From an uncultured archaeon (GTDB lineage Archaea > Iainarchaeota > Iainarchaeia > Iainarchaeales > JAAZKV01): 42,412 bases of DNA. The position numbers were made by a program, and so were the translations under genes. This document shows positions 9,723-38,061 of this stretch, one piece after another. A model generated the notes under the pieces. That model searched no databases, was not told the origin of the DNA, and saw only the letters and a list, made by a program, of their open reading frames with translations. Within the stretch, counting starts at the first letter, position 1. The number at the start of each line of letters is the position of its first letter. The DNA is taken from contig CAZIEL010000001.1 of the NCBI GenBank assembly GCA_964538165.1, positions 1 through 42,412 of the forward strand. The letters are read 5' to 3'.

Positions 9723-10091
9723 CTATTCAGCCCTCAACTCAAACCATTCGATTCTTTTGTCTTTAACAAGTTCTTTTACTTTCTTTTGAGACTCATTAAG
9801 CTGAGATTTGTTTGTTTTAAACTCAACAAAAACGATTTTATCTTCTTCAAAAGCAACTCCATCAATTGGTTTTCCAATAAAACGAAAATTTTGCGAATTG
9901 TATGGAAATTTATCACTAAAGGGAATCCACTGTTCGGTTAGTTGACCATATTTAACACTTTGGGATTGTTTTGAAAAACGAAGAGATTCGGTTTCATTCT
10001 TAAGCGCAATAAAAGCCTTGCCCAAAAGAAAAAGAACAATTAAAAGAATTAAAATTATTCCAATAAAAAGTATTTCAAACAAAACAATCAC
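9723..10091 (-). CDS. membrane-anchored endonuclease related to archaeal Holliday junction resolvase (COG4741-like)
   Basis: N-terminal TM helix followed by ...GKPIDGVAFEEDKIVFVEFKTNKSQLNESQKKV, which fits the D...(E/V)xK restriction-endonuclease-like core of the Hjc-related secreted/membrane nuclease family. Confidence 0.5.
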   Translation of the reverse strand: MIVLFEILFIGIILILLIVLFLLGKAFIALKNETESLRFSKQSQSVKYGQLTEQWIPFSDKFPYNSQNFRFIGKPIDGVAFEEDKIVFVEFKTNKSQLNESQKKVKELVKDKRIEWFELRAE

Positions 10092-17678: not shown

Positions 17679-17712
17679 TATTTGTAAAAGAACTTAATTG
17701 AAAGGTGAAATT

Positions 17713-18024
17713 ATGGGAAGAATGGCTGGACTTAGAAGTGCAATGAAAAAACAAAGAAAAAAAATGGCACAAAGAATGGGAGTGGCAATAAGTAGAGTGA
17801 GCCCCAGAAGAACACTTGATACTTTAGGGCTAAGACGAGAAGCATCTTTACAAATGGGAAACCCAAAAAAACAAGCTAAACCAGGGTTTGCTGTAAAAAT
17901 AAGGCCAATTAGTTCTTTTGACAGAAGAGGAAATGAATTAGTCGCAGCGGATGTTGAAAAAGGAATAAAACTAATGAGAAAATATGACCCCAAATTAGAA
18001 CAAATACCCAGAAGAAAAAAATAA
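17713..18024 (+). CDS. hypothetical highly basic protein
   Basis: ATG at 17713 is preceded by AAAGGTGA. About 104 aa and rich in R/K. No family recognised. Confidence 0.4.
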   Translation: MGRMAGLRSAMKKQRKKMAQRMGVAISRVSPRRTLDTLGLRREASLQMGNPKKQAKPGFAVKIRPISSFDRRGNELVAADVEKGIKLMRKYDPKLEQIPRRKK

Positions 18025-18369
18025 TCAAAGTTCAATTAACGTTACACTAATTATCCCAAGTGCGATTCCAATTTTATTTAATAGTGTCAAATCTTCTTTA
18101 AAGTAAAGAACTCCCACCAAAACAACTGCAATTAAGTTTAGTATAGTTAACACAGAAATTGCTTTTGATAAATACTCATATCTTAACGAAAAAGCCCAAA
18201 GAATAGTTCCAATAAAATAAATAACAAAACCAAAAATAAGAATAATATTATTATTTTCTATTACCCACTTTTTGAAAAAAATATCCCCTATCACTTCCAA
18301 TGCGGTTGCACCAAGAATTAGAGCAAAAAAAACAACTTTCAAATCAATTCCACTACTCATACTATTCAC
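18025..18369 (-). CDS. small 4-TM membrane protein, SMR/EamA-like
   Basis: 114 aa with four hydrophobic helices and a charged residue in helix 1 (ALEVIGDIFFK), reminiscent of small multidrug resistance-type transporters. Confidence 0.5.
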   Translation of the reverse strand: MNSMSSGIDLKVVFFALILGATALEVIGDIFFKKWVIENNNIILIFGFVIYFIGTILWAFSLRYEYLSKAISVLTILNLIAVVLVGVLYFKEDLTLLNKIGIALGIISVTLIEL

Positions 18370-18374
18370 TAAAG

Positions 18375-18463
18375 CGGGCCTAGAGGGAATCGAACCCTCA
18401 TCTCGGGATTACTTCACTTTTAAATACCGAAGTCCCGCCGGTTATCCATTGCCACATAGGCCC
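18375..18463 (-). tRNA. tRNA-Arg (anticodon UCG) with a 17-nt intron at the canonical 37/38 position
   Basis: The reverse complement folds as acceptor GGGCCUA/UAGGCCC, T arm GAGGG-UUCGAUU-CCCUC and anticodon stem CGGGA/UCCCG, with loop CU-UCG-G[UAUUUAAAAGUGAAGUA]A. Exon ACUUC pairs with intron GAAGU, as expected for a bulge-helix-bulge splice site. No encoded CCA. Confidence 0.8.
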
Positions 18464-18494
18464 AAATTAAAATGAATAGTGCTAACCAAAGAAT

Positions 18495-18511
18495 AAAAGC
18501 CTTGGGCTTTT
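18495..18511. promoter_or_regulatory. perfect palindrome AAAAGCC-TTG-GGCTTTT between divergent tRNA-Arg and the Zn-ribbon gene
   Basis: 7-bp arms with a 3-nt centre, 32-48 nt upstream of the tRNA-Arg 5' end. Confidence 0.3.
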
Positions 18512-18583
18512 CGGTTTTTGGGCATTTTGGGAACGTTTAAAAAGCTTCCAGAAGCAAATTCTATTAGATACTTGGTGAGAAAA

Positions 18584-18739
18584 ATGAAGACATGTACATC
18601 ATGCAATAAAGTTGTAACAACAAAGCACTTAGAGTTCAAGTGCCCAGCTTGCGGAAAAAACACTATCGTTAGATGCGATCACTGCAAAGAAACAGCAAAA
18701 GTATACAAGTGCAAAGAATGCAGTTTTGAAGGCCCATAA
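18584..18739 (+). CDS. Zn-ribbon protein (COG2888-like, conserved partner of aEF-1beta)
   Basis: ATG at 18584 follows GGTGA. The 51-aa protein has four CxxC pairs (CTSC, CPAC, CDHC, CKEC) and lies immediately upstream of EF-1beta, as in many archaea. Confidence 0.7.
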   Translation: MKTCTSCNKVVTTKHLEFKCPACGKNTIVRCDHCKETAKVYKCKECSFEGP

Positions 18740-18774
18740 ATTAAACTTATTTTGAACACACTTTGGTGAAAAAA

Positions 18775-19103: not shown

Positions 19104-21152
19104 ATGATAACTTCCCTAACTTTACAAAACTGGAGAACGCACTCTCAAACAACACTAGAGTTTGGAAAAGGAACAAACGTAATTGTTGGAGTAATGGGCT
19201 CAGGAAAAAGCTCAATAGTTAACGCAATTAGTTATACTCTTTTTGGAAGCTTCCCCTCGCTAAAAAACAGAAGTGTTACGCTTGAAGAAATAATAATGAA
19301 TAAACCAAACCAACAAACAAGAACAGAAACCGGACTTACTTTTGAACAAGATGGAAAAAAATACAAAATTGAAAGAATAATAAAAAAAGATGGAACAAAC
19401 GAAGCAAAACTATATGAAGATGCTAAATTAATTGCGGGCCCAAAACAAAAAGATGTTAATGAAAAAGTTGAAAACCTACTCGGGCTTAATTATGAATTGT
19501 TCTCAAGAGCAGTTTATTCTGAACAAAATGAAATGGACTTCTTTTTGAAACTATCTCCAAGCGAAAGAAAGAAAAAATTTGATGAATTGCTTGAACTTGA
19601 AAAATATGAAGAAGCAAGAAAAAACTCTGTGACACTCCAAAATGACATTCTTAAAGAAAATAAACAAAGAAAAGAATTTATTGAACAACAAAAACAAACA
19701 ATCAAAAGCCACGAAGAAGAAAAACTACTAAAACAAATAGAAGAAGAAAAAAGAGCAATAGAAGAACTCCATAAGGAAATTGAACAAGTAAAAAAAGAAA
19801 GTTTGTTTATCGAAAAAGAATACACTTCTCTTTTTGAAAAAGAAAAGCAAAACAAAATGCTTGAAGACCTTTTTATTAAAATTAATTCAAAATTAGAAAC
19901 CCTAAAAGAAGATATTGCAAAAAGTGAAAAGATTTCCCTAAATGAAGTGGAAGAAGAAAGCAAAAAACTAAAACAAGAACTTATTGTTCTTAGAGAAAAA
20001 CAAATCACAATTGAAAAAACCCACAAAGAGCTGGATATGCTAGTTAAAAAAAACGGAGAAGAAAGAAAAGTTAATGAATATGAGAAAAACAAATTGATTA
20101 TTGAAGAAAAAGGATTAGCAGGATTAAAAGGAAAATGTCCGACTTGCAAACAAGAAATGGATGAAAACCATAAAGGACACTTAATTAAAGAAATTAAAGA
20201 AAAACTAACAATTTGCGAAACGAACATAAAAGAATTTGAAGAACAAAAAAAAGAACTTGATGAAAAAACCAGTAAAGCTGAAAGAGAAAGGGACACATTA
20301 AGAAAAGATATTGATGAAAAAAACAGGATTTTGTTTAAACTAGAGGCCAGCACAAAACAAGCAATGGAAACTGAGATTAAAAAGAAACAATTTATCGAGC
20401 TTAGTGAAGAAATACCCAAAGTAAAAAAACAACTTAACGAACTTGGATTTGATAAAAAGAAACTTGAGACGATTCGTGAAGAATTTTACAAAAAAAAGAG
20501 AGTCTTAGAAGTGGCCGAAATCAAAGCCAAATCAAAAGAGGAAATAAAAAAGAGTTTTGAAGATATCCTGCAAAAAACCTCCAAAATAAAGAAAAGCATA
20601 GAAGAACAAGAAAAACAAGTACTACGCGCAGAAGAAGCGGCAAAAAAAATGAGCGTATTTGGAAACTGCTTAATTGCTACCCAAGTGGAACTAAGAGAAT
20701 CAATGCTTGAAACAATAAATCAAGCAATGACCAATATTTGGGGAGCAATTTACCCTTATAATGATTTTACTGACGCACGACTTTGTGTTGTTGAAGAAGG
20801 GTATGATTTACAAGTACAAACCAGATCAAACGGGTGGGTAAGAGTGGAAGGAATACTTTCTGGAGGAGAAAGAAGTGCTGCGGCATTATGCATTAGAATT
20901 GCCTTTGCACTTGTTCTTACCAAAAAACTATCTATGATAATACTTGATGAACCAACACACAACCTTGACTCAAATGCAGTTACAAAATTAAGTGAAATGT
21001 TAAGAGAAGAAATGCCAAAACTTGTAGAACAAATATTTGTAATAACTCATGATAAACAACTTGAAAATGCAGCAAGCAGTAATCTTTACTTGTTAACAAG
21101 AAACAAAGATAATGATGAATCAACGAAAGTTGACCAAATTCAAACTTACTAA
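19104..21152 (+). CDS. rad50: Rad50 DNA double-strand break repair ATPase (compact, 682 aa)
   Basis: N-terminal Walker A GVMGSGKSS, a long heptad/charged coiled coil with a central CxxC zinc hook (KCPTCKQ, nt 20136-20147), and C-terminal signature LSGGE plus Walker B IILDEPT. Confidence 0.9.
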   Translation: MITSLTLQNWRTHSQTTLEFGKGTNVIVGVMGSGKSSIVNAISYTLFGSFPSLKNRSVTLEEIIMNKPNQQTRTETGLTFEQDGKKYKIERIIKKDGTNEAKLYEDAKLIAGPKQKDVNEKVENLLGLNYELFSRAVYSEQNEMDFFLKLSPSERKKKFDELLELEKYEEARKNSVTLQNDILKENKQRKEFIEQQKQTIKSHEEEKLLKQIEEEKRAIEELHKEIEQVKKESLFIEKEYTSLFEKEKQNKMLEDLFIKINSKLETLKEDIAKSEKISLNEVEEESKKLKQELIVLREKQITIEKTHKELDMLVKKNGEERKVNEYEKNKLIIEEKGLAGLKGKCPTCKQEMDENHKGHLIKEIKEKLTICETNIKEFEEQKKELDEKTSKAERERDTLRKDIDEKNRILFKLEASTKQAMETEIKKKQFIELSEEIPKVKKQLNELGFDKKKLETIREEFYKKKRVLEVAEIKAKSKEEIKKSFEDILQKTSKIKKSIEEQEKQVLRAEEAAKKMSVFGNCLIATQVELRESMLETINQAMTNIWGAIYPYNDFTDARLCVVEEGYDLQVQTRSNGWVRVEGILSGGERSAAALCIRIAFALVLTKKLSMIILDEPTHNLDSNAVTKLSEMLREEMPKLVEQIFVITHDKQLENAASSNLYLLTRNKDNDESTKVDQIQTY

Positions 21153-22416: not shown

Positions 22417-24024
22417 TTAGGCAAAACCCTTAACTAGGTGGCTACTAAACCCAGCTATTTGGGGCTGAGGAAGGTTTTGAGCCATAGCAAAAGATTTAGC
22501 CAATTTTAGAGAAGAAGTGCCTTTTATAAAAGCACTTTGTTTATTTGCATGCAAAACCCTATAACCTTCATTTTCTGAGAATTCTTTAAACTTAGAAAGA
22601 GTGGCTTCTTGAATGGAAATAATGGATCGAGCCAATTGAGTAGAAAAAAAGGATGAACTTTGGCTAGTTAATTGATTAGGAAGTTCACTTAACACTTGCG
22701 AAATCACAGAATACAAAGCAACATCATAATAATAACCAAATTCTTTAATTGAAAACAAATTTGATTCATAAAAATCAATTCTTTTTCTTAAATTAAATAA
22801 ACTAGAATTTGACTCTCTAACTTCTCTTGAAAAAAAACTTTCTTTGTTTAAGCAAAACCAATTTAGTTTGTGATTTGCATCATCTGAATTCCTGCTTGAA
22901 ACCAAAATTGCTTTATTCTCAGAAATTAACCTTTTAGCATCCATTAGCGGAACTAAAACAAAATCGTTCCTAAAAAAAGGGCCAACAGGAAAAGAATTTA
23001 AAAAAAAATCTCTTTTCTTTTGAACTCTGAGTTCTTTCATTTCATTTTCTTCGTGGTAATCTCTCGCAAAACTTTCTGAAGAAGACTCAAAAAAAGAATT
23101 GTCTTCATTAAACTTAATTTTTATTAATGAAGAAGGAAGTAAATTCTTTGAATCCAAAGTAACTGGTTCACAACAAGAACAATTTTTTGTTTCAGGCCCA
23201 ATATTGAAAAAATTGTTTGAGAAAAGATCGGCCCAAATTCTTGAAAAATCAATTTTTGAAAGAACTTCATTCTTACTTCCAATTGGCTCAAACCCAACAC
23301 TTGAAAATATCTTCTCGGATTTATCAAAAGTGATTGGTTCTCCGTGTTTAAAGAAACATTTTTCCAAATACAATTCTACTTTTTCTTCTCTTGATTTGGG
23401 AATTTGTTCCATTGAAACAGAAAGCAAATGACTCCATGCCGCAAGTTCAACTAAATATAATGAATCTTCTTTATTTACCCTTAATGCTTCTTGAAATGAA
23501 ATTTCTTTTGTGAGAAAAAAGCCAAGATCTGCACCCTCCCCAATTTTTTGCACTAAATCTTGACTGTTTTCATCACAAAGAGGATTAGTATAATAAAGCA
23601 CGCCGTCTATTTTTTTAAAAGAATCAAAATAAGACCAATTTTTTTCAACTAAAAAAGATTTTTCTGGCCCAATCACAACAAATTTTTTGTTAATATGCAA
23701 AGCTAAGGCATTACTAATCTTTTTTAAATCCGAAAAATTTAGGGTCCTTAATTTTAGGAAATTATTGTCCTCCTCAACACTAAAACCCTTAAAACCCAAA
23801 GATAAAATTAAAGTTGAAAGCTTTTCTTTTTCAATTGAGCTTGAAATCAAAATAAAAGGAAAAAACTTGTGTCGTTGAACCATTCTTTCTTTTGAATTAG
23901 AAAATTCTACTAAAACCTCATGTTTGGATTCATTGTAAGAAACTTTTGTTAAGTAAAGCAAATCATTTTCTTTTGATTGAGCTTGCGTAACGCTATCTAG
24001 ATTACTCTCTATGTGTTGGGACAT
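22417..24024 (-). CDS. family B DNA polymerase-like protein, truncated and predicted catalytically inactive
   Basis: By-eye alignment to archaeal PolB finds four matching segments. The N-terminal domain pattern is LYLTKVSYNESKHEVLVEF...HKFFPFILI. A motif A-like segment is KIDFSRIWADLFSNNFFNIGPET, versus [20 protein letters not shown]. A motif B remnant is EFGYYY. The pre-motif C helix plus motif C is ARSIISIQEATLSKFKEFSENEGYRVLHANKQSAFIKG, versus [41 protein letters not shown], so DTD becomes NKQ. The protein ends about 40 aa later, so there is no thumb and no KKRY. No Exo I-III motifs are seen. Confidence 0.5.
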   Translation of the reverse strand: MSQHIESNLDSVTQAQSKENDLLYLTKVSYNESKHEVLVEFSNSKERMVQRHKFFPFILISSSIEKEKLSTLILSLGFKGFSVEEDNNFLKLRTLNFSDLKKISNALALHINKKFVVIGPEKSFLVEKNWSYFDSFKKIDGVLYYTNPLCDENSQDLVQKIGEGADLGFFLTKEISFQEALRVNKEDSLYLVELAAWSHLLSVSMEQIPKSREEKVELYLEKCFFKHGEPITFDKSEKIFSSVGFEPIGSKNEVLSKIDFSRIWADLFSNNFFNIGPETKNCSCCEPVTLDSKNLLPSSLIKIKFNEDNSFFESSSESFARDYHEENEMKELRVQKKRDFFLNSFPVGPFFRNDFVLVPLMDAKRLISENKAILVSSRNSDDANHKLNWFCLNKESFFSREVRESNSSLFNLRKRIDFYESNLFSIKEFGYYYDVALYSVISQVLSELPNQLTSQSSSFFSTQLARSIISIQEATLSKFKEFSENEGYRVLHANKQSAFIKGTSSLKLAKSFAMAQNLPQPQIAGFSSHLVKGFA

Positions 24025-24064
24025 GACAATAGAGCAATTTTAGAGACTTAAAAAGACCAAACCA

Positions 24065-24081
24065 ACCAATTTGCCGGTGAT
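24065..24081 (-). promoter_or_regulatory. shared promoter-proximal element (ACCAA-T-TTGCCGGTGAT) upstream of the PolB-like gene
   Basis: 41-57 nt upstream of the start codon at 24024, just distal to a TATA-like box (coding strand CTTTTTAAGT). The 11-mer TTGCCGGTGAT is identical to the one upstream of herA. Confidence 0.45.
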
Positions 24082-24091
24082 GAATAAAAAC

Positions 24092-25630
24092 TCACAAGAA
24101 GGCATTTATTTCGTCTTCCTTTTTCTTTTCATCAGATTGGAAGGCTTTTGCAGCATCTTCTAAAGTGGATTCATGACGACTTGGTTGAGATTTACGCAAT
24201 CTCACTTTAAAGAAAGTTGGGGCACTAACTGCTTCACCAACAATTAATGCTTCTCCAACCCTAAGTGAAGAAATAATTCCAATGCTTGATTTATCTAAAC
24301 CTTCAGAGGATTGAGAAATGTGATCAAGATCGTAAGGGTTAGTAATTCTTAGAATAATATTTGTGTTACAATTTGCAAGAGTTGTTGTATCAAGTCTTTT
24401 TGGTCGTTGAGAAATTACTACAAGTGAGGCTCCAAACTTTCTACCTTCTCTTGCAATAGTTCGTAAGTATGAACGCGCAACTGCATGATCGGCTGCAACC
24501 CCCTCAGGAATAAAATTATGCGCTTCTTCAACAAAAAGAGCAAACGGAGGAATCTTCCTAGAGTGCCCTCTCCTCTCATGAAATAATTTATTTGATAAAT
24601 AAGCAACAAGCACCTGCTTTTTCTTTTCAGAAACAACATTATTCAAATCAATCACAAGCAAATTGCCCGGTTTTACTAAATCAATTACACTAGGCTCATC
24701 AATTTTTGAAAAAAGATTTAATTCTTCAAGTTCTGCAAGCACACCAAATAATGAACTCTGAGTCTTTTCATTTTCAATTGTTTTAATCTCTGCTCTAATT
24801 GCACTCAAGTCAAACGGGCCTGCACCAGAACGCATTTCATCATTTAATCTTGAAAGAATTACTGCAAGCGCCCTTTTTTGGGTAGGGGAGAGTTCAACAA
24901 TACTTGAAAGCATGTGAACATTCACCTTTGAACAAGCAATTTTAATTTTTGACCCATCAATAATTTTTGTAACTGAAGAAAAATCCTTAAACTTTGAAGA
25001 ATCACTTTGTTTTACTGGCTCACCAAAACAAGTATATTCTCCATGCGTATCAATAACTACTACTCCAATTTGACCCTGTTCTTTTTTTCTGGAGAGAAGC
25101 TCTTCTAAAAGAACACTAACAAAATAAGATTTTCCTGCTCCACTAGTTGCAACAATTGCTAAGTGTTTTTGAAGCATTTTAGAAAGATTTACTTTAAGAT
25201 CAACATCATGAAACTGAAGTTTGCCAAGCTCAAGCCCATCAATTTGTAACCCCAAAAATTTCTTTATCTTTTCATTATCAGCAGTATAAATTTTTGTTCC
25301 AGGAGAGGGAGGAAAAGTGGGTCTTTGAATCAAGTTATCTTTAAACACACCAAGTGGTTTGGCATTTGCAATTAAAAATTCCCATTCAGCAGCAGGAAAA
25401 TTCTTTTCAAGTTCTTCTCCCATCACTTTAACTGAATCGGGTCGCTCAAAATAACGGTTTGTTTTTATTACATCCTCAACTAAAAGCATCATTGTTCCTT
25501 CAGAATATTCTAATTCCACAAACATTCCTTTGTGAGCTTTGCCAGCATTAATTACAAAAGAAACTGTTGAAGGAGAAGGACCTTCCATTGTTGAAACAAC
25601 TGTTCCTAATTGATCACGCATAAACATCAA
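24092..25630 (-). CDS. herA: HerA DNA helicase/translocase (FtsK-HerA superfamily ATPase)
   Basis: N-terminal HAS-barrel-like region, Walker A ATSGAGKSY and Walker B LFVEEAHNFIP, with REGRKFG and ISQRP segments typical of HerA/DUF87. 512 aa. Confidence 0.9.
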   Translation of the reverse strand: MMFMRDQLGTVVSTMEGPSPSTVSFVINAGKAHKGMFVELEYSEGTMMLLVEDVIKTNRYFERPDSVKVMGEELEKNFPAAEWEFLIANAKPLGVFKDNLIQRPTFPPSPGTKIYTADNEKIKKFLGLQIDGLELGKLQFHDVDLKVNLSKMLQKHLAIVATSGAGKSYFVSVLLEELLSRKKEQGQIGVVVIDTHGEYTCFGEPVKQSDSSKFKDFSSVTKIIDGSKIKIACSKVNVHMLSSIVELSPTQKRALAVILSRLNDEMRSGAGPFDLSAIRAEIKTIENEKTQSSLFGVLAELEELNLFSKIDEPSVIDLVKPGNLLVIDLNNVVSEKKKQVLVAYLSNKLFHERRGHSRKIPPFALFVEEAHNFIPEGVAADHAVARSYLRTIAREGRKFGASLVVISQRPKRLDTTTLANCNTNIILRITNPYDLDHISQSSEGLDKSSIGIISSLRVGEALIVGEAVSAPTFFKVRLRKSQPSRHESTLEDAAKAFQSDEKKKEDEINAFL

Positions 25631-25662
25631 CTAATCCAAATGTCATATAAAAATACCTCTTA

Positions 25663-25680
25663 GGTAACTTGCCGGTGATC
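25663..25680 (-). promoter_or_regulatory. shared promoter-proximal element (GGTAA-C-TTGCCGGTGAT) upstream of herA
   Basis: 33-50 nt upstream of the herA start at 25630, just distal to a TATA box (coding strand GGTATTTTTATATGA). Confidence 0.45.
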
Positions 25681-25882
25681 ACTTCAACCCAAATTTAATT
25701 TGTCTTTTTTTAACATTCCTTTTTCTAGTATTAACCATTCTTAATTGTCTTAAAGACTTAGCATCTTTAAGCAGTTTTAGGGCAAGTTGTTTTCTTTTAA
25801 TTGACATCCCTGAACGCATGAGTATTGCGTCAGCATCCAAAAGGGTTTGCCGAACCCGATTCTCTAAATTATTTTCTACCAT
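25679..25882 (-). CDS. hypothetical small basic protein
   Basis: The 67-aa ORF overlaps the HAD gene stop by 14 nt and ends 48 nt before herA. Its position in the operon is the only support. Confidence 0.3.
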   Translation of the reverse strand: MVENNLENRVRQTLLDADAILMRSGMSIKRKQLALKLLKDAKSLRQLRMVNTRKRNVKKRQIKFGLK

Positions 25883-26540
25883 TTAACACACCAACCACTT
25901 TTGGCAACTCAAAGAGGGATTTAATTTCAAATTCGGGTTTTATACTTGCATAATCAATTACTTTTCCATTTCTATTAATTAAACAATTGTGCATTCCAAC
26001 ATTTTTTGAGCCGGTTATATCACTACGTAAAGAATCCCCCACCATTATTGCTTCGTTTGGTTTAACTTTAAGTTTATTCAAAATTGTATTAAACGCCACC
26101 GGATCAGGTTTGATTGTTTTTATCTCAAAGCTATAAACAATTTTGTCAAAATAAGTCGGCAAAGAAAGTTTGTTTTCAAGTTCTTTTGATTTAAGACTCT
26201 CAGTATTTGAAAGCAAACCAAGTTTAAATCCATCCGACCTAAGCTTTTTTAGAAATTCCCTAACATCAGGAAAAAAGTTTATTTTATCAAAACGATTAGT
26301 ATAAATTTCATTAATCTCTTCTTGCAACAATACGTTGGGTTCCTCACTAAAAGCATTAAAAAAATCTCCTTTTAACTCTTCAAAAGATTTATATTGTTTT
26401 AATTGAGTGGCAAGTTCATATCGTTCAATAAATTCTGGGAGAGACGCGTGATCTTTTTTTGCTAACTCTGTTAACCTTCCAAAATCAACTGTTGCAGGAA
26501 TTAAGGTATTCCACAAATCAAAAACAATTGCTTTAATCAT
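25869..26540 (-). CDS. HAD-superfamily (subfamily IA-like) hydrolase
   Basis: Motif I VFDLWNTL (nucleophile Asp present, but the D+2 position is Trp), motif II LLSNT and motif IV VGDSLRSDITG. 223 aa. Confidence 0.8.
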   Translation of the reverse strand: MIKAIVFDLWNTLIPATVDFGRLTELAKKDHASLPEFIERYELATQLKQYKSFEELKGDFFNAFSEEPNVLLQEEINEIYTNRFDKINFFPDVREFLKKLRSDGFKLGLLSNTESLKSKELENKLSLPTYFDKIVYSFEIKTIKPDPVAFNTILNKLKVKPNEAIMVGDSLRSDITGSKNVGMHNCLINRNGKVIDYASIKPEFEIKSLFELPKVVGVLNGRK

Positions 26541-26670
26541 CTTTTGCCCCTCTTTAATTTTCTTGCAATTCTTGCCTTTTTCTTTTCAGTTCGACCTCTT
26601 AACACAGAACCCAAATTGTTAAGCAAATATTTTCTATTGGCAGCAATAACTGCTTCAGGTTCTTTAGACT

Positions 26671-27296
26671 GCATAAAATGAATCCTTGAAAGTTCTTGCA
26701 TATCTTTTGCAAAGTATGCTCTTCTTCTTTCTGCTTCAAGTTTAGAGTTAGATAAAAATACTTTACGCGGAAGAGCACTCATAAATCTTCTATTAACTAT
26801 TGTTCTTTCTCCCTTTGAAGAAAGAATTTGCCCAAGTGCATTAGCATGCATTGAACCAACAACAACATAAACTGGTTTTCCTTTTTTTGCATTAATTGTA
26901 TTACGAATAATTGAAGCCATATTCTCTTCACGCTTAATGCTTGCGCTTGTAACCCAAAGGAAACGATCAAAATCAGATTTTATTCTATTTACTCCTTTCA
27001 TGAAAGAATATTCTGAAGAAAAAGTTTCAAGGTTAATTACCTTAAATGCTTTTGATCTTGCAACATCAGCAAGTTCAATTAACGAAGAAAAATTTGAGAA
27101 CAAAACATTCAAGTACTTGTCACCATACATTCGTTTTGCCCTTGCAACATTCTCAGCCAAATACTTTGGAGGAGAAACTTTAAGCAAGCTATTATTTGCA
27201 TGAGCCTCCCCAACCGCAAGAGCAAAATCAAAAAGTTCTTTACTCCCTTCAACACAAACCGTAGATCCATTCGGGAGAGAATGCAAGTACGAAAGT
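26671..27296. repeat. tandem direct repeat, copy 1 (626 bp)
   Basis: Identical base-for-base, by eye, to 27297..27922. The antisense ORFs 26937..27203 and 27563..27829 give identical 88-aa translations. Confidence 0.9.
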
Positions 27297-27922
27297 GCAT
27301 AAAATGAATCCTTGAAAGTTCTTGCATATCTTTTGCAAAGTATGCTCTTCTTCTTTCTGCTTCAAGTTTAGAGTTAGATAAAAATACTTTACGCGGAAGA
27401 GCACTCATAAATCTTCTATTAACTATTGTTCTTTCTCCCTTTGAAGAAAGAATTTGCCCAAGTGCATTAGCATGCATTGAACCAACAACAACATAAACTG
27501 GTTTTCCTTTTTTTGCATTAATTGTATTACGAATAATTGAAGCCATATTCTCTTCACGCTTAATGCTTGCGCTTGTAACCCAAAGGAAACGATCAAAATC
27601 AGATTTTATTCTATTTACTCCTTTCATGAAAGAATATTCTGAAGAAAAAGTTTCAAGGTTAATTACCTTAAATGCTTTTGATCTTGCAACATCAGCAAGT
27701 TCAATTAACGAAGAAAAATTTGAGAACAAAACATTCAAGTACTTGTCACCATACATTCGTTTTGCCCTTGCAACATTCTCAGCCAAATACTTTGGAGGAG
27801 AAACTTTAAGCAAGCTATTATTTGCATGAGCCTCCCCAACCGCAAGAGCAAAATCAAAAAGTTCTTTACTCCCTTCAACACAAACCGTAGATCCATTCGG
27901 GAGAGAATGCAAGTACGAAAGT
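27297..27922. repeat. tandem direct repeat, copy 2 (626 bp)
   Basis: Head-to-tail with copy 1, offset exactly 626 nt. At most 1 nt (T) of junction microhomology. Confidence 0.9.
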
Positions 27923-27998
27923 AAGTCATGATGAAGAGCTTTCTCTATAGCATGACTCCAAGGAAGAATTTCAATACTTGTTCTAATTGTCATTAACT

Positions 27999-29096
27999 TC
28001 ACCCAAAAGGACGATTACTTCTTCGCATTCTAACTTTTGACCCCAATCGATCAACCAATCTATCATAAACAATACTAATATCCTGTTCATTTAAACCTGC
28101 CCTAAGGTCGGCTTCAATTAAAACGCTTGGAAAAGAATATTCTTTATGCAAAGAACTCAAAGAATACACAATACTTGCAATATTTTGGACACACTCAAGA
28201 AAGTGTCCAGCATTTTGAGAATTATTACAAAGAAATTCCACTCTTAAGGGTTTATCAAATTCAGTAGATTTAATATAAAAAACAAAAATGTTTTCAGCCC
28301 ACTTTTTATCATAATCTTTTAGAATAGCATGACTAACAATTTTATTTGTATACGGAAAAGCAAATGTTCGTTCACCCGCCCGCAAATAATAATCCAACAA
28401 AGAAGCATCAAAAGAATTTTTTAATAAACTTGCATCAACCTTTAATGCAGAATTTGGGAGAATTTCTTCTTGAAGAATTTGTTTAAATCTTGCCCCCCTA
28501 GAATCTTCAACACAAGCAACCAAAGAACAAGAATATTCTTGAGCAACACCATACAACTTCTCAAAAAGATCAATAATTGAATAATACTCATCATTAAGTT
28601 CAGACTCAGTTCTGGGTTTATCTTGATATTGCGGAACAATACTCCCATCAATAAACATAAACTTTGGTTTATACTTTTGTATCATTTCAATTGAACACGA
28701 AACCTCTGCCTTTAACCTAACAAGAGAAAGACTTTGAGTTTCTTCATCAGCTTCAAGACCCGAACCAAGCAAAACTGGTTCCGGCAAAGAAAATGCAGCA
28801 GGATAATAATCAGTTTTAACTAATTTACCCCCTTCATAAGTAAATAAAACCCCCGCGGTTTTTATTATTGCAAGATCAATAAAAGAAAGTTTTTTGTGAA
28901 TAAAACCAGAATCCACTCCAGCAACAGCCCCAAAACAATCTTTTTTATTGACTCCAACTACAATCGTCTCGAGTTTGTTTGGAGCACTCACACTTTTCAA
29001 CCCCTGCAAAAGAAGAGAAAGTCGCTCATTATAATTGTGTCTTTGGTTAATAGCAGAAACTGCAGTTTCAAAAAAATCTTTAAACACTAATCTCAC
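27999..29096 (-). CDS. nurA: NurA 5'-3' nuclease
   Basis: 365 aa with a GTG start. It has NurA-type catalytic segments (AGVDSGF, MFIDGSIVPQ, ACVEDSRG) and lies in the same neighbourhood as herA and rad50. Confidence 0.85.
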   Translation of the reverse strand: MRLVFKDFFETAVSAINQRHNYNERLSLLLQGLKSVSAPNKLETIVVGVNKKDCFGAVAGVDSGFIHKKLSFIDLAIIKTAGVLFTYEGGKLVKTDYYPAAFSLPEPVLLGSGLEADEETQSLSLVRLKAEVSCSIEMIQKYKPKFMFIDGSIVPQYQDKPRTESELNDEYYSIIDLFEKLYGVAQEYSCSLVACVEDSRGARFKQILQEEILPNSALKVDASLLKNSFDASLLDYYLRAGERTFAFPYTNKIVSHAILKDYDKKWAENIFVFYIKSTEFDKPLRVEFLCNNSQNAGHFLECVQNIASIVYSLSSLHKEYSFPSVLIEADLRAGLNEQDISIVYDRLVDRLGSKVRMRRSNRPFG

Positions 29097-29135
29097 TAAA
29101 TAAACTAAAGTTTTTAATATTTAAAGACATTCCGA

Positions 29136-29146
29136 GGCAATTTGCC
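29136..29146 (-). promoter_or_regulatory. shared promoter-proximal element, perfect palindrome GGCAA-T-TTGCC upstream of nurA
   Basis: 40-50 nt upstream of the nurA GTG at 29096, just distal to a TATA box (coding strand TCTTTAAATATTAAAAA). Confidence 0.45.
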
Positions 29147-29257
29147 GACAAAAAAGTTGACTTAAGAGCAAGGTTTATAAAGAAAATACGCTTTCTACTT
29201 GTTGGAAACTAGGCTTAATGAGCTAGGTTTAATTTCTTGCGAAAAAGGTGTTTTTTT

Positions 29258-29581: not shown

Positions 29582-29595
29582 AAATAAACTTATTC

Positions 29596-29621
29596 TTGGC
29601 GTTGCTAAAAAGCAATGCCAA
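29596..29621. promoter_or_regulatory. 26-nt inverted repeat TTGGCGTTGCT-AAAA-AGCAATGCCAA upstream of the ArsR-family gene
   Basis: 11-nt arms with one G:T mismatch. It lies 60-85 nt upstream of the arsR-like start and distal to a TATA-like AAGATTAAAAAG. It could be an operator or the terminator of the upstream gene. Confidence 0.35.
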
Positions 29622-29681
29622 AATCGTTCCAAAAGTACCCATACGTTAAGATTAAAAAGACAAACATGAATACTAATTCAT

Positions 29682-29999
29682 ATGAATCAGGGCACGGAAC
29701 AACCATTTAAGTGCATGGAAGTACTTGGAAACAGACTTAGAGTGGAAATAATTTGTTTATTACAAGAAAAACCAAGAACTGTACAAGAAGTATGCCACGT
29801 ACTTGGACGAGAACAGAGTTTAATTAGTCACTCACTAAAACAACTTAGAGAATGCAATTTTGTCGATTATAGAAAAGAAGGAAAAAAAAGCGTGTATTAT
29901 ATAAAATCAGAAATTTTTAATAAAAAAAACAAAACAATATTTGAAATGTTTGAAGAACATGCAAAAACATATTGCAAAAATAAGCACAAAGAAGAATAA
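29682..29999 (+). CDS. ArsR/SmtB-family winged-helix transcriptional regulator
   Basis: LGNRLRVEIICLLQEKPRTVQEVCHVLGREQSLISHSLKQLRECNFVDYRKEGKKSVYY is a typical ArsR HTH-plus-wing pattern. Confidence 0.8.
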   Translation: MNQGTEQPFKCMEVLGNRLRVEIICLLQEKPRTVQEVCHVLGREQSLISHSLKQLRECNFVDYRKEGKKSVYYIKSEIFNKKNKTIFEMFEEHAKTYCKNKHKEE

Positions 30000-34369: not shown

Positions 34370-34765
34370 TCATACTATTTGGGTAATAAGAACATCAAGC
34401 GAAACACTTACTTTTTTTGCTTCCTCAAGTGAAATCATAAAGTTTTTTCCAGCATTATGAAAATTTTCTTCTTTGACAAAAAGCCAGCCCTCTCGAGGAA
34501 TTTTCCATGCAACAAAAAATTCTGCTCCGGCAGTTTTTGCCCAATTAACTTCATCATTAAAAGTAATAATTGGAATTGCTAAATGCGCACCTTTCCAAGC
34601 TTTGCACTCAAAAGCAAGAATTCGCCCATTTTTTAATGCAACAACATCAGGGGACGGCAGAGGAGACACTCCCGAACCCGCCACACGAAGAACAGCAAAA
34701 CCTAAATCGGACAGAGTGTGAATTAACTCTCTCTCTGCATTAGCACCTTTGTTATAATGAGCCAT
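34370..34765 (-). CDS. hjc: Holliday junction resolvase Hjc
   Basis: KGANAERELIHTLSDLGFAVLRVAGSG...PDVVALKNGRILAFECKAWK is the canonical Hjc E...D...ExK core. 131 aa. Confidence 0.85.
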   Translation of the reverse strand: MAHYNKGANAERELIHTLSDLGFAVLRVAGSGVSPLPSPDVVALKNGRILAFECKAWKGAHLAIPIITFNDEVNWAKTAGAEFFVAWKIPREGWLFVKEENFHNAGKNFMISLEEAKKVSVSLDVLITQIV

Positions 34766-36527: not shown

Positions 36528-36621
36528 TTCTAAAAACCGTAAAAGGAAAATTTTGCAAATAAATTAATGACAGACTTTAAAAAAGTCTTATTTAATGCCA
36601 AAATTCAGGAGAAGTGAAATC

Positions 36622-38061
36622 ATGGCAAAGACATATTTGAGCGCAGTTAAATACGAAGTGCTCGCAAATTACGAAGTACAAGGAGTTGTAGAAAAACCAG
36701 ACATAGTGGGAGCAATCTTTGGTCAATGTGAAGGACTTTTAGGAGAAGACATGGATCTAAAAGAACTACAACAAGCAGGAAAAATTGGGAGAATAGAAAT
36801 TACTGTAACTAAAGGAAAAGGAACAACATTTGGAGAAGTAACAATCCCAAGTTCGCTTGATCAAATCAAAACAAGTATTCTAGCAGCAACAGTGGAAACA
36901 GTTGAAAAAGTTGGTCCATTTGAAGCAAAAGTTAAAGTAACAAAAATCCAAGACACAAGAAAAGAAAAAAGAGATGTAATTACTGACAGAGCAAAAGAAT
37001 TACTAAAACACTTACAACAAAACGAAGGAGTAGAAAGCTCTGAAATGGCTGACTCAATAAAATCAGATATTCGAACAGAAAAAATAATTGATCTCAATGG
37101 ATTACAAGCTGGACCAGAAGTAGCAACTTCACCAGAAATAATTGTTGTTGAAGGAAGAGCAGACGTACTAAAACTATTAAGTTATGGAATAAACAACGCA
37201 GTAGCAATGAATGGAGGAAACATTGATCCCCCACTAATTGGACTATGCAAAGAAAAACTAGTAACGGTTTTAATTGATGGAGACAGAGGAGGAGAATTAA
37301 ACGCTAAAAAGTTAGCTTCATTAACAAAAGTAGATTTTGTTTGTGTTGCACCTGATGGAAAAGAAGTTGAAGAATTAACTCAAAAAGAAATACTTCAAGC
37401 ACTAAAAAGAAAATTACCATTCGCAGAAGCATTTAATGGAAAAGAAAACTCACAAACTCCAGCGTTTGAAGCTAGACAAGAATTCCAACCAAGACCATTT
37501 GGACAAGGCGGATACAGAAACGATAGACCACAATACAACAATGGTTCACGCTATCCAAATAACAGACCACAATTTGGAAACAATAGACCGGATGGACGAA
37601 GAGACTTTGGCAACAGACCACAATTTGGACACAACAGGCCATTTGGACAAAGTGGATTTGGAGGAAGAGACCGCCCACAATTTGGAGGAAACTTTCAACG
37701 AAACGAGTTCAGACCAAGATTTGAGGGAAGAAGAGACTTCGCCCCACAAGGACAAGCGTTTGTTCCAAAAGAAGAACCCGTACCACAAGAAGTACTTGAT
37801 CTAAAAAAAGAATTTGACAAACTAAAAGGCAAGTCAAAAGCAAGATTAATTGATGAAAAGAAAAAGAAAATCAAGGATGTTGAAGTAAAAGACCTCCTTG
37901 AATCAATACAAAAACAAAAGAAAAAGATAGCAACCATAATGTTTGATGGAATAATTACAAACAGACTTGTGGAAGCTGCCGAAAGCAAAGGTGTTGCAAC
38001 AATAGTAGGAGTAAAAAAAGGAAACATTACTTCAACTAAAGTTAAGACATTCACATTATAA
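36622..38061 (+). CDS. dnaG: archaeal DnaG primase-like Toprim protein (exosome-associated DnaG)
   Basis: Archaeal DnaG N-terminus KYEVLANYEVQGVVEKPDIVGAIFGQCEGLLG, Toprim core IIVVEGRADVLKLLSYGINNAVAMNG...DGDRGGE and conserved C-terminal MFDGIITNRLVEAAESKGVATIVGV. The ATG at 36622 is preceded by AGGAGAAGTGA, and the ORF opens at 36595. Confidence 0.9.
   Translation: MAKTYLSAVKYEVLANYEVQGVVEKPDIVGAIFGQCEGLLGEDMDLKELQQAGKIGRIEITVTKGKGTTFGEVTIPSSLDQIKTSILAATVETVEKVGPFEAKVKVTKIQDTRKEKRDVITDRAKELLKHLQQNEGVESSEMADSIKSDIRTEKIIDLNGLQAGPEVATSPEIIVVEGRADVLKLLSYGINNAVAMNGGNIDPPLIGLCKEKLVTVLIDGDRGGELNAKKLASLTKVDFVCVAPDGKEVEELTQKEILQALKRKLPFAEAFNGKENSQTPAFEARQEFQPRPFGQGGYRNDRPQYNNGSRYPNNRPQFGNNRPDGRRDFGNRPQFGHNRPFGQSGFGGRDRPQFGGNFQRNEFRPRFEGRRDFAPQGQAFVPKEEPVPQEVLDLKKEFDKLKGKSKARLIDEKKKKIKDVEVKDLLESIQKQKKKIATIMFDGIITNRLVEAAESKGVATIVGVKKGNITSTKVKTFTL
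37465..37765 (+). repeat. degenerate in-frame repeats encoding an R/G/Q/F/P/N-rich (RPQFG-type) low-complexity linker inside dnaG
   Basis: AGACCACAATTTGGA-type units recur (about 37564, 37615 and 37669). They encode NRPQFGNNRPDGRRDFGNRPQFGHNRPFGQSGFGGRDRPQFGG. Confidence 0.8.

What the first reader, a model, noticed from the sequence alone, without database searches (positions are those of the whole stretch)
24065..29146. Shared GC-rich palindromic element just upstream of the TATA boxes of nurA, herA and the PolB-like gene
Three separate minus-strand promoters have the same architecture: start codon, then about 15-25 nt, then a TATA-like box, then about 8-12 nt, then a GC-rich element.
- Upstream of nurA the plus strand reads GGCAATTTGCC (29136-29146), a perfect GGCAA-N-TTGCC palindrome.
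- Upstream of herA it reads GGTAACTTGCCGGTGAT (25663-25680).
- Upstream of the PolB-like gene it reads ACCAATTTGCCGGTGAT (24065-24081).

The herA and PolB-like sites share an identical 11-mer, TTGCCGGTGAT. That is improbable by chance in such AT-rich spacers. Scanning by eye, I found TTGCCG/CGGCAA in no other intergenic spacer of the window. It is absent upstream of rad50, hjc and dnaG. The other occurrences are inside CDSs at about 26157, 28783 and 33450.

This looks like an operator or activator site defining a small DNA-repair regulon. It functionally ties the dead polymerase to NurA/HerA.
Basis: seen in the sequence. Interest (0 to 1): 0.7.

Follow-up and report, generated by a model that had tools for sequence, protein, structure and literature searches.

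The report
Shared promoter box of DNA-break-repair genes
A 16-base sequence sits at a fixed distance upstream of the TATA box of nurA, herA and a dead-polymerase-like gene in this small DPANN archaeon and its relatives, which marks these genes, and in relatives a LAGLIDADG nuclease gene, as one co-regulated DNA-break-processing set.

Summary
On the coding (minus) strand all three promoters read box, then 8 nt, then TATA box, then about 22 nt, then start codon. The box consensus, built from relatives, is cRCCGGCAawTTRCTy.

A weight matrix built only from relatives scores the three window sites at 20.5, 20.0 and 17.2 bits. The next best hit in the window is 12.6 bits. Random sequence gives 0.16 hits of 17 bits or more per window.

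In 411 kb from about 34 related Iainarchaeota/Diapherotrites loci, 54 of 74 box hits lie 37-80 nt upstream of four gene families: nurA, herA, the 535-aa gene and a free-standing double-LAGLIDADG nuclease gene. In 398 kb of more distant archaeal herA loci there were no hits.

The 535-aa protein has a family-B polymerase fold, and its motif C aspartates appear to be lost.

The left half (CCGGCA) is strongly conserved and the right half (TTRCT) only weakly. The shared 11-mer is not significant on its own.

The most likely mechanism is a binding site for an unidentified sequence-specific transcription factor directly upstream of BRE/TATA on leaderless promoters. Activator or repressor is unresolved. 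This is a new member of a known kind.

The parts
29135..29150 (-). Box C, upstream of nurA. The minus strand reads TTGTCGGCAAATTGCCT. It contains the perfect dyad GGCAAATTGCC.
   Evidence: Scores 17.2 bits with the matrix built from relatives only.
29118..29125 (-). TATA box of the nurA promoter (TTTAAATA). It lies 17 nt after GGCA.
   Evidence: Spacing across relatives is summarised.
27999..29096 (-). nurA. The GTG start is 50 nt after the first G of GGCA. It is the first gene of a co-directional run: nurA, the duplicated gene, the HAD hydrolase gene and the 67-aa ORF.
   Evidence: Pfam NurA match. Gene order.
25662..25677 (-). Box B, upstream of herA. The minus strand reads TCACCGGCAAGTTACCT. 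It overlaps the TGA stop codon of the 67-aa ORF.
   Evidence: Scores 20.5 bits.
25646..25653 (-). TATA box of the herA promoter (TTTTTATA). It lies 16 nt after GGCA.
24092..25630 (-). herA. The ORF starts at TTG 25630. The likely true start is ATG 25621 (MRDQ...), 52 nt after GGCA, which matches the MREQ starts of relatives.
   Evidence: Pfam DUF87/HerA and NCBIfam HerA matches. Relatives' starts.
24064..24079 (-). Box A, upstream of the PolB-like gene. The minus strand reads TCACCGGCAAATTGGTT. It begins 12 nt after the herA stop codon.
   Evidence: Scores 20.0 bits.
24047..24054 (-). TATA box of the PolB-like gene promoter (TTTTTAAG). It lies 17 nt after GGCA.
22417..24024 (-). 535-aa PolB-like gene. 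The ATG is 51 nt after GGCA. The protein has a family-B polymerase fold, and its motif C catalytic aspartates appear to be replaced.
   Evidence: AlphaFold2 pLDDT 85.8. Foldseek best match 5mdn_A, E 2.9e-12. Profile alignment of YGDTDS against LHaNKkkAF. No Pfam hit. Family confined to Diapherotrites/Iainarchaeota MAGs.

Best explanation
The box (consensus cRCCGGCAawTTRCTy, 16 bp) is most likely a cis-regulatory site bound by one sequence-specific transcription factor, which has not been identified.

It sits with fixed spacing directly upstream of the BRE/TATA core promoter of a small set of genes:
- the nurA operon;
- herA, wherever it has its own promoter;
- a catalytically dead-looking PolB-like gene;
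- in relatives, a free-standing double-LAGLIDADG nuclease gene.

The start codon lies about 50 nt after GGCA and about 29-30 nt after the first T of the TATA box. The transcripts are therefore probably leaderless, and the box covers roughly -54 to -39 relative to the transcription start. That places it upstream of the transcript, not in a 5' UTR.

From this position the bound factor would most plausibly help or hinder TFB/TBP recruitment. I favour activation or a dual role, because the site flanks the BRE/TATA and start site rather than overlapping them.

Shown here: the sequence, its spacing, its conservation, its gene specificity and its co-variation within genomes. Inferred: the transcription start position, protein binding and the direction of regulation.
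For: 1. **Independent matrix test.** The window sites score 17-20 bits, the next best hit scores 12.6, and random sequence gives 0.16 hits of 17 bits or more.
2. **Conservation.** Among 37 aligned sites, GG is invariant, C at -1 is present in 31, C at +2 in 32, A at +3 in 37, C at +9 in 32 and T at +10 in 32. The spacer to the TATA box is 16 +/- 1 nt.
3. **Specificity, first set.** In 318 kb, 48 hits had a box plus a TATA box at the right distance. Of these, 46 lie upstream of nurA, herA or PolB-like orthologues, and one more lies before a truncated PolB-like gene.
4. **Specificity, larger set.** In 411 kb of non-redundant sequence there were 74 box hits: 22 PolB-like, 14 nurA, 9 herA, 9 LAGLIDADG and 20 other. 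About 13 of the 20 would be expected by chance; this is my extrapolation from the shuffle counts, not a shuffle run at 13 bits.
5. **Negative controls.** There were no hits in 398 kb of distant archaeal herA loci. The other promoters of the window lack the box.
6. **Geometry.** The distance from GGCA to the start codon is 48-51 nt in 18 of 22 PolB-like genes and 49-52 nt in 9 of 9 LAGLIDADG genes.
7. **The box follows the gene, not the neighbourhood.** It is kept where the PolB-like gene is separated from herA (L004, L006, L009, L022). It is also kept upstream of the LAGLIDADG gene in varied contexts.
8. **Operon logic.** Where herA abuts the small upstream ORF without its own promoter, it has no box and lies downstream of the boxed nurA promoter.
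9. **Within-genome co-variation.** The GC-rich relative L075 has the variant GCACCGGAAATC(C)ACCC before both its PolB-like and its LAGLIDADG gene.
10. **Precedents.** The same architecture is documented for TFB-RF1 (PMC5937170). The same kind of target set is documented for Csa3a (PMC5587795).
Against: - No binding protein has been identified.
- The only obvious regulator in the window, the ArsR-type gene at 29682-29999, has a different conserved palindrome over its own start codon: CATGAA-N6-TTCATG.
- There are no transcription start or expression data.
- The TATA boxes are near consensus, so activation may not be needed.
- The box is asymmetric. The left half carries about 10 bits and the right half about 4, which is unusual for a symmetric dimer site.
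- Only about 4% of this genome, and loci chosen around member genes in relatives, were scanned. Genome-wide frequency is therefore unknown.
- Five high-scoring boxes in relatives do not fit the 50-nt geometry.
Confidence: 0.75

Rival explanations
1. The site is the same, but it acts as a repressor operator. A factor bound at about -54 to -39 would keep the DNA-break-processing genes off until a signal such as DNA damage or a cell-cycle stage releases it.
For: The core promoters look strong, with consensus TTTAAATA or TTTTTAAA TATA boxes, so they may not need help. Damage regulons are often built on repression; this rests on my own knowledge of bacterial LexA.
Against: According to the introduction of PMC5937170, archaeal repressors usually overlap BRE/TATA or the start site. 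This box ends 8 nt before the TATA box and does not overlap it.
Confidence: 0.3
2. The box is the recognition site of the co-regulated double-LAGLIDADG protein. That protein would act either as an autoregulating DNA-binding regulator, like the domesticated endonuclease scaffold of bacterial WhiA, or as a nuclease that cuts there.
For: The LAGLIDADG gene carries the box before its own start in 9 of 9 orthologues. The family is single-copy, syntenic and strongly conserved, with 55% mean column identity. LAGLIDADG proteins read long asymmetric sites, which would fit the box's asymmetry; this rests on my own knowledge.
Against: No homologue was found in the 42-kb window. Its syntenic slot at 17679-18760 holds other ORFs, yet the window boxes score highest. 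Both catalytic aspartates are invariant (D23, D126/D128), which points to a working nuclease rather than a regulator. Cutting one's own promoters would be harmful.
Confidence: 0.1
3. The box is not a site for a dedicated regulator. It would be a promoter-class element read by the basal machinery, for example an upstream extension recognised by an alternative TFB paralogue, as TFB3 marks damage-responsive promoters in Sulfolobales.
For: The spacing to the TATA box is strictly fixed and the orientation is strictly single. This is what direct contact with the pre-initiation complex would produce.
Against: The box is separated from the TATA box by 8 nt that include the BRE position. TFB-DNA contacts that far upstream are not known to me; this rests on my own knowledge. 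TFB paralogues of this organism could not be examined because none is in the window.
Confidence: 0.1
4. The similarity is chance, or simply shared ancestry of orthologous upstream regions, and has no function.
For: Repeated GC-rich 11-mers are common in the window: 30 observed against 21 expected. Loose pattern searches are at chance level.
Against: Four non-homologous genes share the box within each genome. It persists at protein identities of 30-45% while the flanking bases diverge. A matrix that excludes the window recovers exactly the three sites. There were no hits in 398 kb of control loci.
Confidence: 0.02

Closest known systems
TFB-RF1 binding motif (TRBM, TCTGAANTTCAGA) of Pyrococcus and other Thermococcales (PMC5937170)
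   Same: A short (semi-)palindromic box lies at a conserved distance just upstream of BRE and TATA. It is conserved across a whole order, marks a very small regulon, and was found or confirmed by aligning orthologous upstream regions.
   Different: The sequence is different. TRBM is a symmetric 13-mer, whereas this box is asymmetric. The targets there are transporter genes with a weak BRE, not DNA-break-processing genes. The binding protein there is known and has been tested; here it is unknown.
Csa3a regulon of Sulfolobus islandicus (PMC5587795)
   Same: [quoted passage not shown] The PolB family review PMC7544198 says the B2 group of PolBs has been considered inactivated; that dpo2 belongs to B2 rests on my own knowledge. 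So a HerA/NurA pair and an atypical PolB share one regulator there too.
   Different: Csa3a is a CARF-HTH protein tied to CRISPR adaptation. No CRISPR-cas genes or CARF protein were seen in the window. The Csa3a motif sequence was not compared. The lineage is different (Thermoproteota versus DPANN).
Orc1-2 / TFB3 DNA-damage response of Sulfolobales, with promoter motif ANTTTC (PMC6061795, PMC6101594)
   Same: A short promoter motif defines a set of DNA-damage-related genes in an archaeon.
   Different: At the equivalent place the box reads A-w-T-T-R-C, and T occurs at the R position in only 1 of 37 sites. The strongly conserved part of the box is CCGGCA, which the Orc1-2 motif lacks.
Ptr2 upstream activating sites of Methanocaldococcus jannaschii (own knowledge, not checked here)
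   Same: Sites upstream of the TATA box through which a bound factor recruits TBP.
   Different: Ptr2 is an Lrp-family protein with paired palindromic sites. Here there is a single asymmetric box.

Membership tests
Archaeal transcription-factor binding site upstream of the core promoter (UAS/operator) | Conserved in orthologous promoters across species while the flanking bases diverge | tested here: met
   37 aligned sites from about 20 species. The core columns carry 1.4-2.4 bits each and the flanks less than 0.3 bits. Also seen in distant relatives L063, L062 and L075.
Archaeal transcription-factor binding site upstream of the core promoter (UAS/operator) | Shared by several non-homologous genes in one genome and absent from most other promoters | tested here: met
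   Three genes in the window and four gene families in relatives. The other window promoters lack it.
Archaeal transcription-factor binding site upstream of the core promoter (UAS/operator) | Fixed position and orientation relative to TATA/BRE | tested here: met
   The spacer from GGCA to the TATA box is 16 +/- 1 nt and the orientation is always the same.
Archaeal transcription-factor binding site upstream of the core promoter (UAS/operator) | Dyad symmetry, as expected for a dimeric factor | tested here: inconclusive
   The dyad GGCAA-n-TTRCT is imperfect. The right half is weak: T at +7 in 25 of 37 sites, G at +8 in 15 of 37, and T rather than C at +10 in 32 of 37. It is perfect only at the window's nurA site.
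Archaeal transcription-factor binding site upstream of the core promoter (UAS/operator) | Specific binding by a protein, and an effect on transcription | not testable with these tools
   Needs EMSA, DAP-seq or in vitro transcription.
Archaeal transcription-factor binding site upstream of the core promoter (UAS/operator) | Lies upstream of the transcription start, not in the 5' UTR | tested here: inconclusive
   Inferred only. The first T of the TATA box lies 29-30 nt before the start codon, which by general archaeal promoter geometry predicts leaderless transcripts. No transcription start data are available.
BRE (TFB recognition element) | Directly abuts the 5' side of the TATA box (about 6-7 nt) | tested here: not met
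   The box ends 8 nt upstream of the TATA box. A separate purine-rich stretch occupies the BRE position.
Orc1-2 DNA-damage motif (ANTTTC) | Conserved ANTTTC hexamer in the promoter | tested here: not met
   At the corresponding column, T occurs in 1 of 37 sites; A or G occurs in 34.
Csa3a regulon | A CARF-HTH Csa3a regulator and CRISPR-cas context | not tested
   None seen among the window genes annotated, but the rest of the genome is not available.
Family B DNA polymerase (the 535-aa gene) | PolB fold | tested here: met
   AlphaFold2 pLDDT 85.8, pTM 0.85. 235 PDB matches with E of 0.001 or better; the matches listed are archaeal, viral, bacterial and yeast family-B polymerases. Best match 5mdn_A, E 2.9e-12, TM 0.52.
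Family B DNA polymerase (the 535-aa gene) | Catalytic aspartates of motif C (YGDTDS) | tested here: not met
   The profile alignment places LHaNKkkAFV opposite YGDTDSLFV. The alignment itself is weak, with E 0.08-0.14.
LAGLIDADG homing endonuclease (fourth member, in relatives only) | Two LAGLIDADG motifs with conserved acidic residues | tested here: met
   Invariant G22-D23-G24 and D126, D128-G129 in 25 sequences. The Pfam LAGLIDADG_3 match is weak for the query, but the domain is precomputed for many family members.
LAGLIDADG homing endonuclease (fourth member, in relatives only) | Resides in an intron or intein, or is mobile | tested here: not met
   The gene is free-standing and single-copy. 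In two genomes it occupies a conserved slot between the aEF-1beta gene and the CCA-adding enzyme gene.

The most novel reading that the evidence does not exclude
The box is read by the co-regulated, domesticated double-LAGLIDADG protein. This protein autoregulates and switches on a self-contained DNA-break module: the LAGLIDADG nuclease, the HerA-NurA resection machine and a catalytically dead PolB-like scaffold. The module would be a lineage-specific programmed break-and-repair or genome-defence system in Iainarchaeota, rather than general repair.
Probability: 0.08. Interest if true: 0.85.

Novelty: new member of a known kind. Interest (0 to 1): 0.55.

Why it matters
Nothing is known experimentally about gene regulation in these uncultivated, small-genome DPANN archaea, and I found no described promoter motif for them in the searchable literature.

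The box gives a concrete and easily testable regulon. It also makes two functional predictions:
- An orphan protein family of about 500 aa, confined to this lineage, has a polymerase-B fold without the motif C aspartates and works with HerA-NurA.
- A conserved, non-mobile LAGLIDADG nuclease belongs to the same pathway.

The pairing of HerA/NurA with an atypical PolB under one promoter element echoes the Csa3a regulon of Sulfolobus. That hints at a recurring functional link across distant archaea.

Tried and rejected
1. **The shared 11-mer as evidence in itself.** Rejected, because repeated GC-rich 11-mers are at the chance level.
2. **The extra hit at +15397.** The sequence ACCGGCACCAAAGCAC... 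lies before the CCA-adding enzyme gene and was picked up by the loose regex. It lacks TTRCT, scores below 6 bits, has the wrong spacing, and is not seen in the corresponding intergenic regions of L062 and L063. I treat it as chance.
3. **ArsR-type regulator next to nurA as the binding factor.** Its own promoter has a different conserved palindrome, and it sits in a NifS/NifU operon. Unlikely.
4. **The 67-aa basic ORF between the HAD gene and herA as a regulator.** No family hit and no detectable sequence conservation. Relatives have only similarly placed small basic ORFs. Left open but unsupported.
5. **CCGG as a restriction-modification or methylation-linked site.** CCGG is not depleted, with 28 observed against 29 expected. 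No support.
6. **A known RNA family overlapping the sites.** None found.
7. **Other DPANN and Thermoplasmatota herA loci.** No box found.
8. **A DNA-pattern scan of the metagenome collection for the box.** Not run. A pattern of 14 specified bases would give thousands of chance hits.

Full report
**Organism and gene setting**

The window has about 32% G+C. It comes from a DPANN archaeon of the Iainarchaeota/Diapherotrites group. The closest HerA loci are MAGs labelled Candidatus Iainarchaeum, Forterrea or simply archaeon.

The relevant genes lie on the minus strand:
- nurA, 27999-29096 (Pfam NurA)
- a gene carrying an internal exact tandem duplication
- a HAD hydrolase gene, 25869-26540
- a 67-aa basic ORF, 25679-25882
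- herA, 24092-25630 (DUF87/HerA)
- a 535-aa ORF, 22417-24024, with no Pfam hit

rad50 (19104-21152), hjc (34370-34765), an Hjc-related endonuclease (9723-10091) and dnaG (36595-38061) are also in the window.

**Checking the observation**

Read on the coding strand, the three promoters are:
- PolB-like gene: tcaTCACCGGCAAATTGGTTggtttggtcTTTTTAAG, then 22 nt, then ATG
- herA: gtgaTCACCGGCAAGTTACCTaagaggtaTTTTTATA, then the start codon
- nurA: ttTTGTCGGCAAATTGCCTcggaatgtcTTTAAATA, then GTG

The window holds 30 repeated 11-mers with 6 or more G+C, against 21 +/- 6 in shuffles. TTGCCG occurs 11 times, not 6, with the extra copies inside ORFs. The real test of significance had to come from elsewhere.

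**Conservation in relatives**

I fetched 55 herA loci from reference genomes. Nineteen of them (L004-L022, HerA 67-85% identical) belong to the same clade. A loose search for CGGCA-N13-19-TATA in these loci hit almost only upstream of orthologues of nurA, herA and the 535-aa gene.

Aligning 37 such sites gives the consensus c-R-C-C-G-G-C-A-a-w-T-T-R-C-T-y. GG is invariant. C(-1), C(+2), A(+3), C(+9) and T(+10) are each present in 31-37 of the 37 sites. The TATA box follows 16 +/- 1 nt after GGCA.

The flank ATCAC, which makes up the rest of the shared 11-mer, is specific to this organism. Relatives have CCAC, CGCC or GGCC in that position.

**Significance and specificity**

A matrix built from relatives only, with no window site included, scores the three window sites at 20.5, 20.0 and 17.2 bits. 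The next best position in 42 kb scores 12.6 bits and lies inside rad50.

Markov-random windows give 0.16 hits of 17 bits or more. None of 300 random windows had three.

Results across larger sets:
- **318 kb from 23 related loci.** 48 positions had a box of 9 bits or more plus a TATA box at the right distance. 46 precede orthologues of the three genes, and one more precedes a PolB-like gene cut off by the locus end.
- **398 kb of more distant archaeal herA loci** (other DPANN, Thermoplasmatota, Nitrososphaerota). The 32-column matrix found nothing at 16 bits or more.
- **The window's other promoters.** Their TATA boxes can be read, and none carries the box.

The box follows the gene rather than the neighbourhood. 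It is present before the PolB-like gene where other genes separate that gene from herA (L004, L006, L009, L022).

herA lacks its own box exactly in those genomes where it abuts the small upstream ORF. In those cases it can be transcribed from the boxed nurA promoter.

**A fourth member**

One relative (L059) had a box before an unannotated start of a 285-aa protein with two LAGLIDADG motifs. Using that protein as the query in the metagenome collection gave eight further loci with varied upstream sequence. A look-up of one homologue's contig (L074) added one more. Every locus with sequence upstream of the gene carries the box, a TATA-like element, and the ATG 49-52 nt after GGCA.

The family has more than 299 members, mostly from Diapherotrites. 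In the two genomes examined it occupies the same slot, between the aEF-1beta gene and the CCA-adding enzyme gene, a few genes from the PolB-like gene. Both catalytic aspartates are invariant. It therefore looks like a domesticated, working nuclease rather than a mobile one.

No homologue is present in the window, and its syntenic slot holds other ORFs.

In the GC-rich relative L075, both the PolB-like and the LAGLIDADG promoters carry the same variant box, GCACCGGAAATC(C)ACCC. This is the pattern expected if one factor and its sites evolve together.

In the pooled non-redundant set of 411 kb there are 74 box hits of 13 bits or more. They divide into 22 PolB-like, 14 nurA, 9 herA, 9 LAGLIDADG and 20 other. 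About 13 of the 20 would be expected by chance; that figure is my extrapolation from the shuffle counts. A few high-scoring ones remain unexplained.

**Identity of the 535-aa protein**

Sequence searches give only weak hits to PolB palm regions. A model built on 43 homologues is confident, with pLDDT 85.8 and pTM 0.85. It matches family-B polymerases throughout the PDB; the best match is 5mdn_A at E 2.9e-12.

In the profile alignment, motif A keeps its aspartate-containing DFS, but motif C YGDTDS faces LHaNKkkAF. A polymerase-dead protein is therefore likely, although that alignment is weak.

All 86 homologues found are unnamed, and the few source labels that name a lineage say Diapherotrites or Candidatus ainarchaeum. 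The synteny nurA...herA-PolB-like-rpoK-rps17e-rad50 holds down to 31% identity.

**Mechanism**

The first T of the TATA box lies 29-30 nt before the start codon. By the general geometry of archaeal promoters (TATA centred near -26/-27; own knowledge), transcription should begin at or next to the start codon. The box would then span roughly -54 to -39, just beyond the BRE position.

That placement matches the TFB-RF1 motif of Thermococcales. This is a palindrome at conserved distance just upstream of BRE/TATA, through which TFB is recruited (PMC5937170). According to the same paper's introduction, repressors usually overlap the core promoter or the start site.

I therefore favour a sequence-specific factor that modulates TFB/TBP recruitment, with activation somewhat more likely than repression. 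The near-consensus TATA boxes argue for caution on that point.

The binding factor is unknown:
- The neighbouring ArsR-type gene has its own, different, conserved palindrome over its start codon and belongs to a NifS/NifU operon.
- The 67-aa ORF has no recognisable fold or conservation.
- The LAGLIDADG protein itself is a long-shot candidate.

**Comparison with known systems and novelty**

The closest functional parallel is the Csa3a regulon of Sulfolobus islandicus. There an imperfect palindrome just upstream of the promoters of nurA-herA operons and of the atypical PolB gene dpo2 mediates joint activation (PMC5587795).

The Orc1-2 damage motif ANTTTC does not match the box.

My literature searches found no description of this box, of regulation in Iainarchaeota, or of a PolB-like protein linked to HerA-NurA in DPANN.

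The finding is a new member of a known kind: a promoter-proximal regulatory site defining a small regulon. Its added value lies in the two functional predictions it makes.

**Limits**

- All sampled loci were chosen around member genes.
- Only about 4% of this genome is in hand.
- No expression or binding data exist.

Noticed in passing
window 26670-27595 (gene region 26537-28002): There is an exact tandem duplication with a period of 626 nt inside the gene between nurA and the HAD hydrolase gene. It produces two overlapping ORFs with identical protein segments. A sister assembly of the same organism (L001) has one intact 276-aa gene, so this is probably an assembly artefact or a very recent duplication.
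   Followed up: partly
window 18375-18463 (-): Rfam finds an 89-nt tRNA here (47.8 bits) that ARAGORN did not report. It is probably an intron-containing archaeal tRNA. It lies in the slot that holds the LAGLIDADG gene in relatives.
   Followed up: no
window 29662-29684; L059 and L063 upstream of the HTH_5 gene: A palindrome CATGAA-N6-TTCATG overlaps the start codon of the ArsR-type regulator gene and is conserved in three species. It is probably that regulator's own operator. A second palindrome, TTGGCGTTGCT-AAAA-AGCAATGCCAA, lies at about 29592-29619 in the window.
   Followed up: partly
L059 -9932, L009 -4003, L012 -2861: A second, inverted copy of the box lies about 38-40 nt upstream of the PolB-like box. 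In L059 an RHH/RelE-like toxin-antitoxin pair lies between herA and the PolB-like gene; the neighbouring genes in L009 and L012 were not identified. In L059 and L012 the copy adjoins ACTTCCAAAAAGAAGTTAAA (a related AACTTTTTTGAAGT in L009), the same sequence found in several LAGLIDADG promoters. The nearest ORF start is 90-160 nt away, so its role is unclear.
   Followed up: partly
L067 18135-18150 (+): A high-scoring box (20.8 bits) precedes a 95-aa ORF followed by an Hjc-related endonuclease gene. The equivalent window gene (9723-10091) has no box. This may be a lineage-specific extra regulon member.
   Followed up: partly
window 22417-24024 (protein residues 282-391): The PolB-like family has invariant C282, C284, C285, H324 and C391. 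This suggests a metal-binding site.
   Followed up: no
LAGLIDADG family proteins P0102, P0106, P0116, P0118 and others: Public gene calls often start these genes too far upstream, so the promoter box and TATA box are translated as a spurious, non-conserved N-terminal extension.
   Followed up: partly
window 25621-25630: The herA ORF opens at TTG 25630. Relatives begin with MREQ, so ATG 25621 (MRDQ) is the likelier start. That start also fits the roughly 50-nt distance from box to start codon.
   Followed up: partly
window 25679-25882 and the same position in L004-L016, L059, L063: A small, very basic, poorly conserved ORF of 55-75 aa sits between the HAD hydrolase gene and herA in many relatives. 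It has no family hit and its function is unknown.
   Followed up: partly
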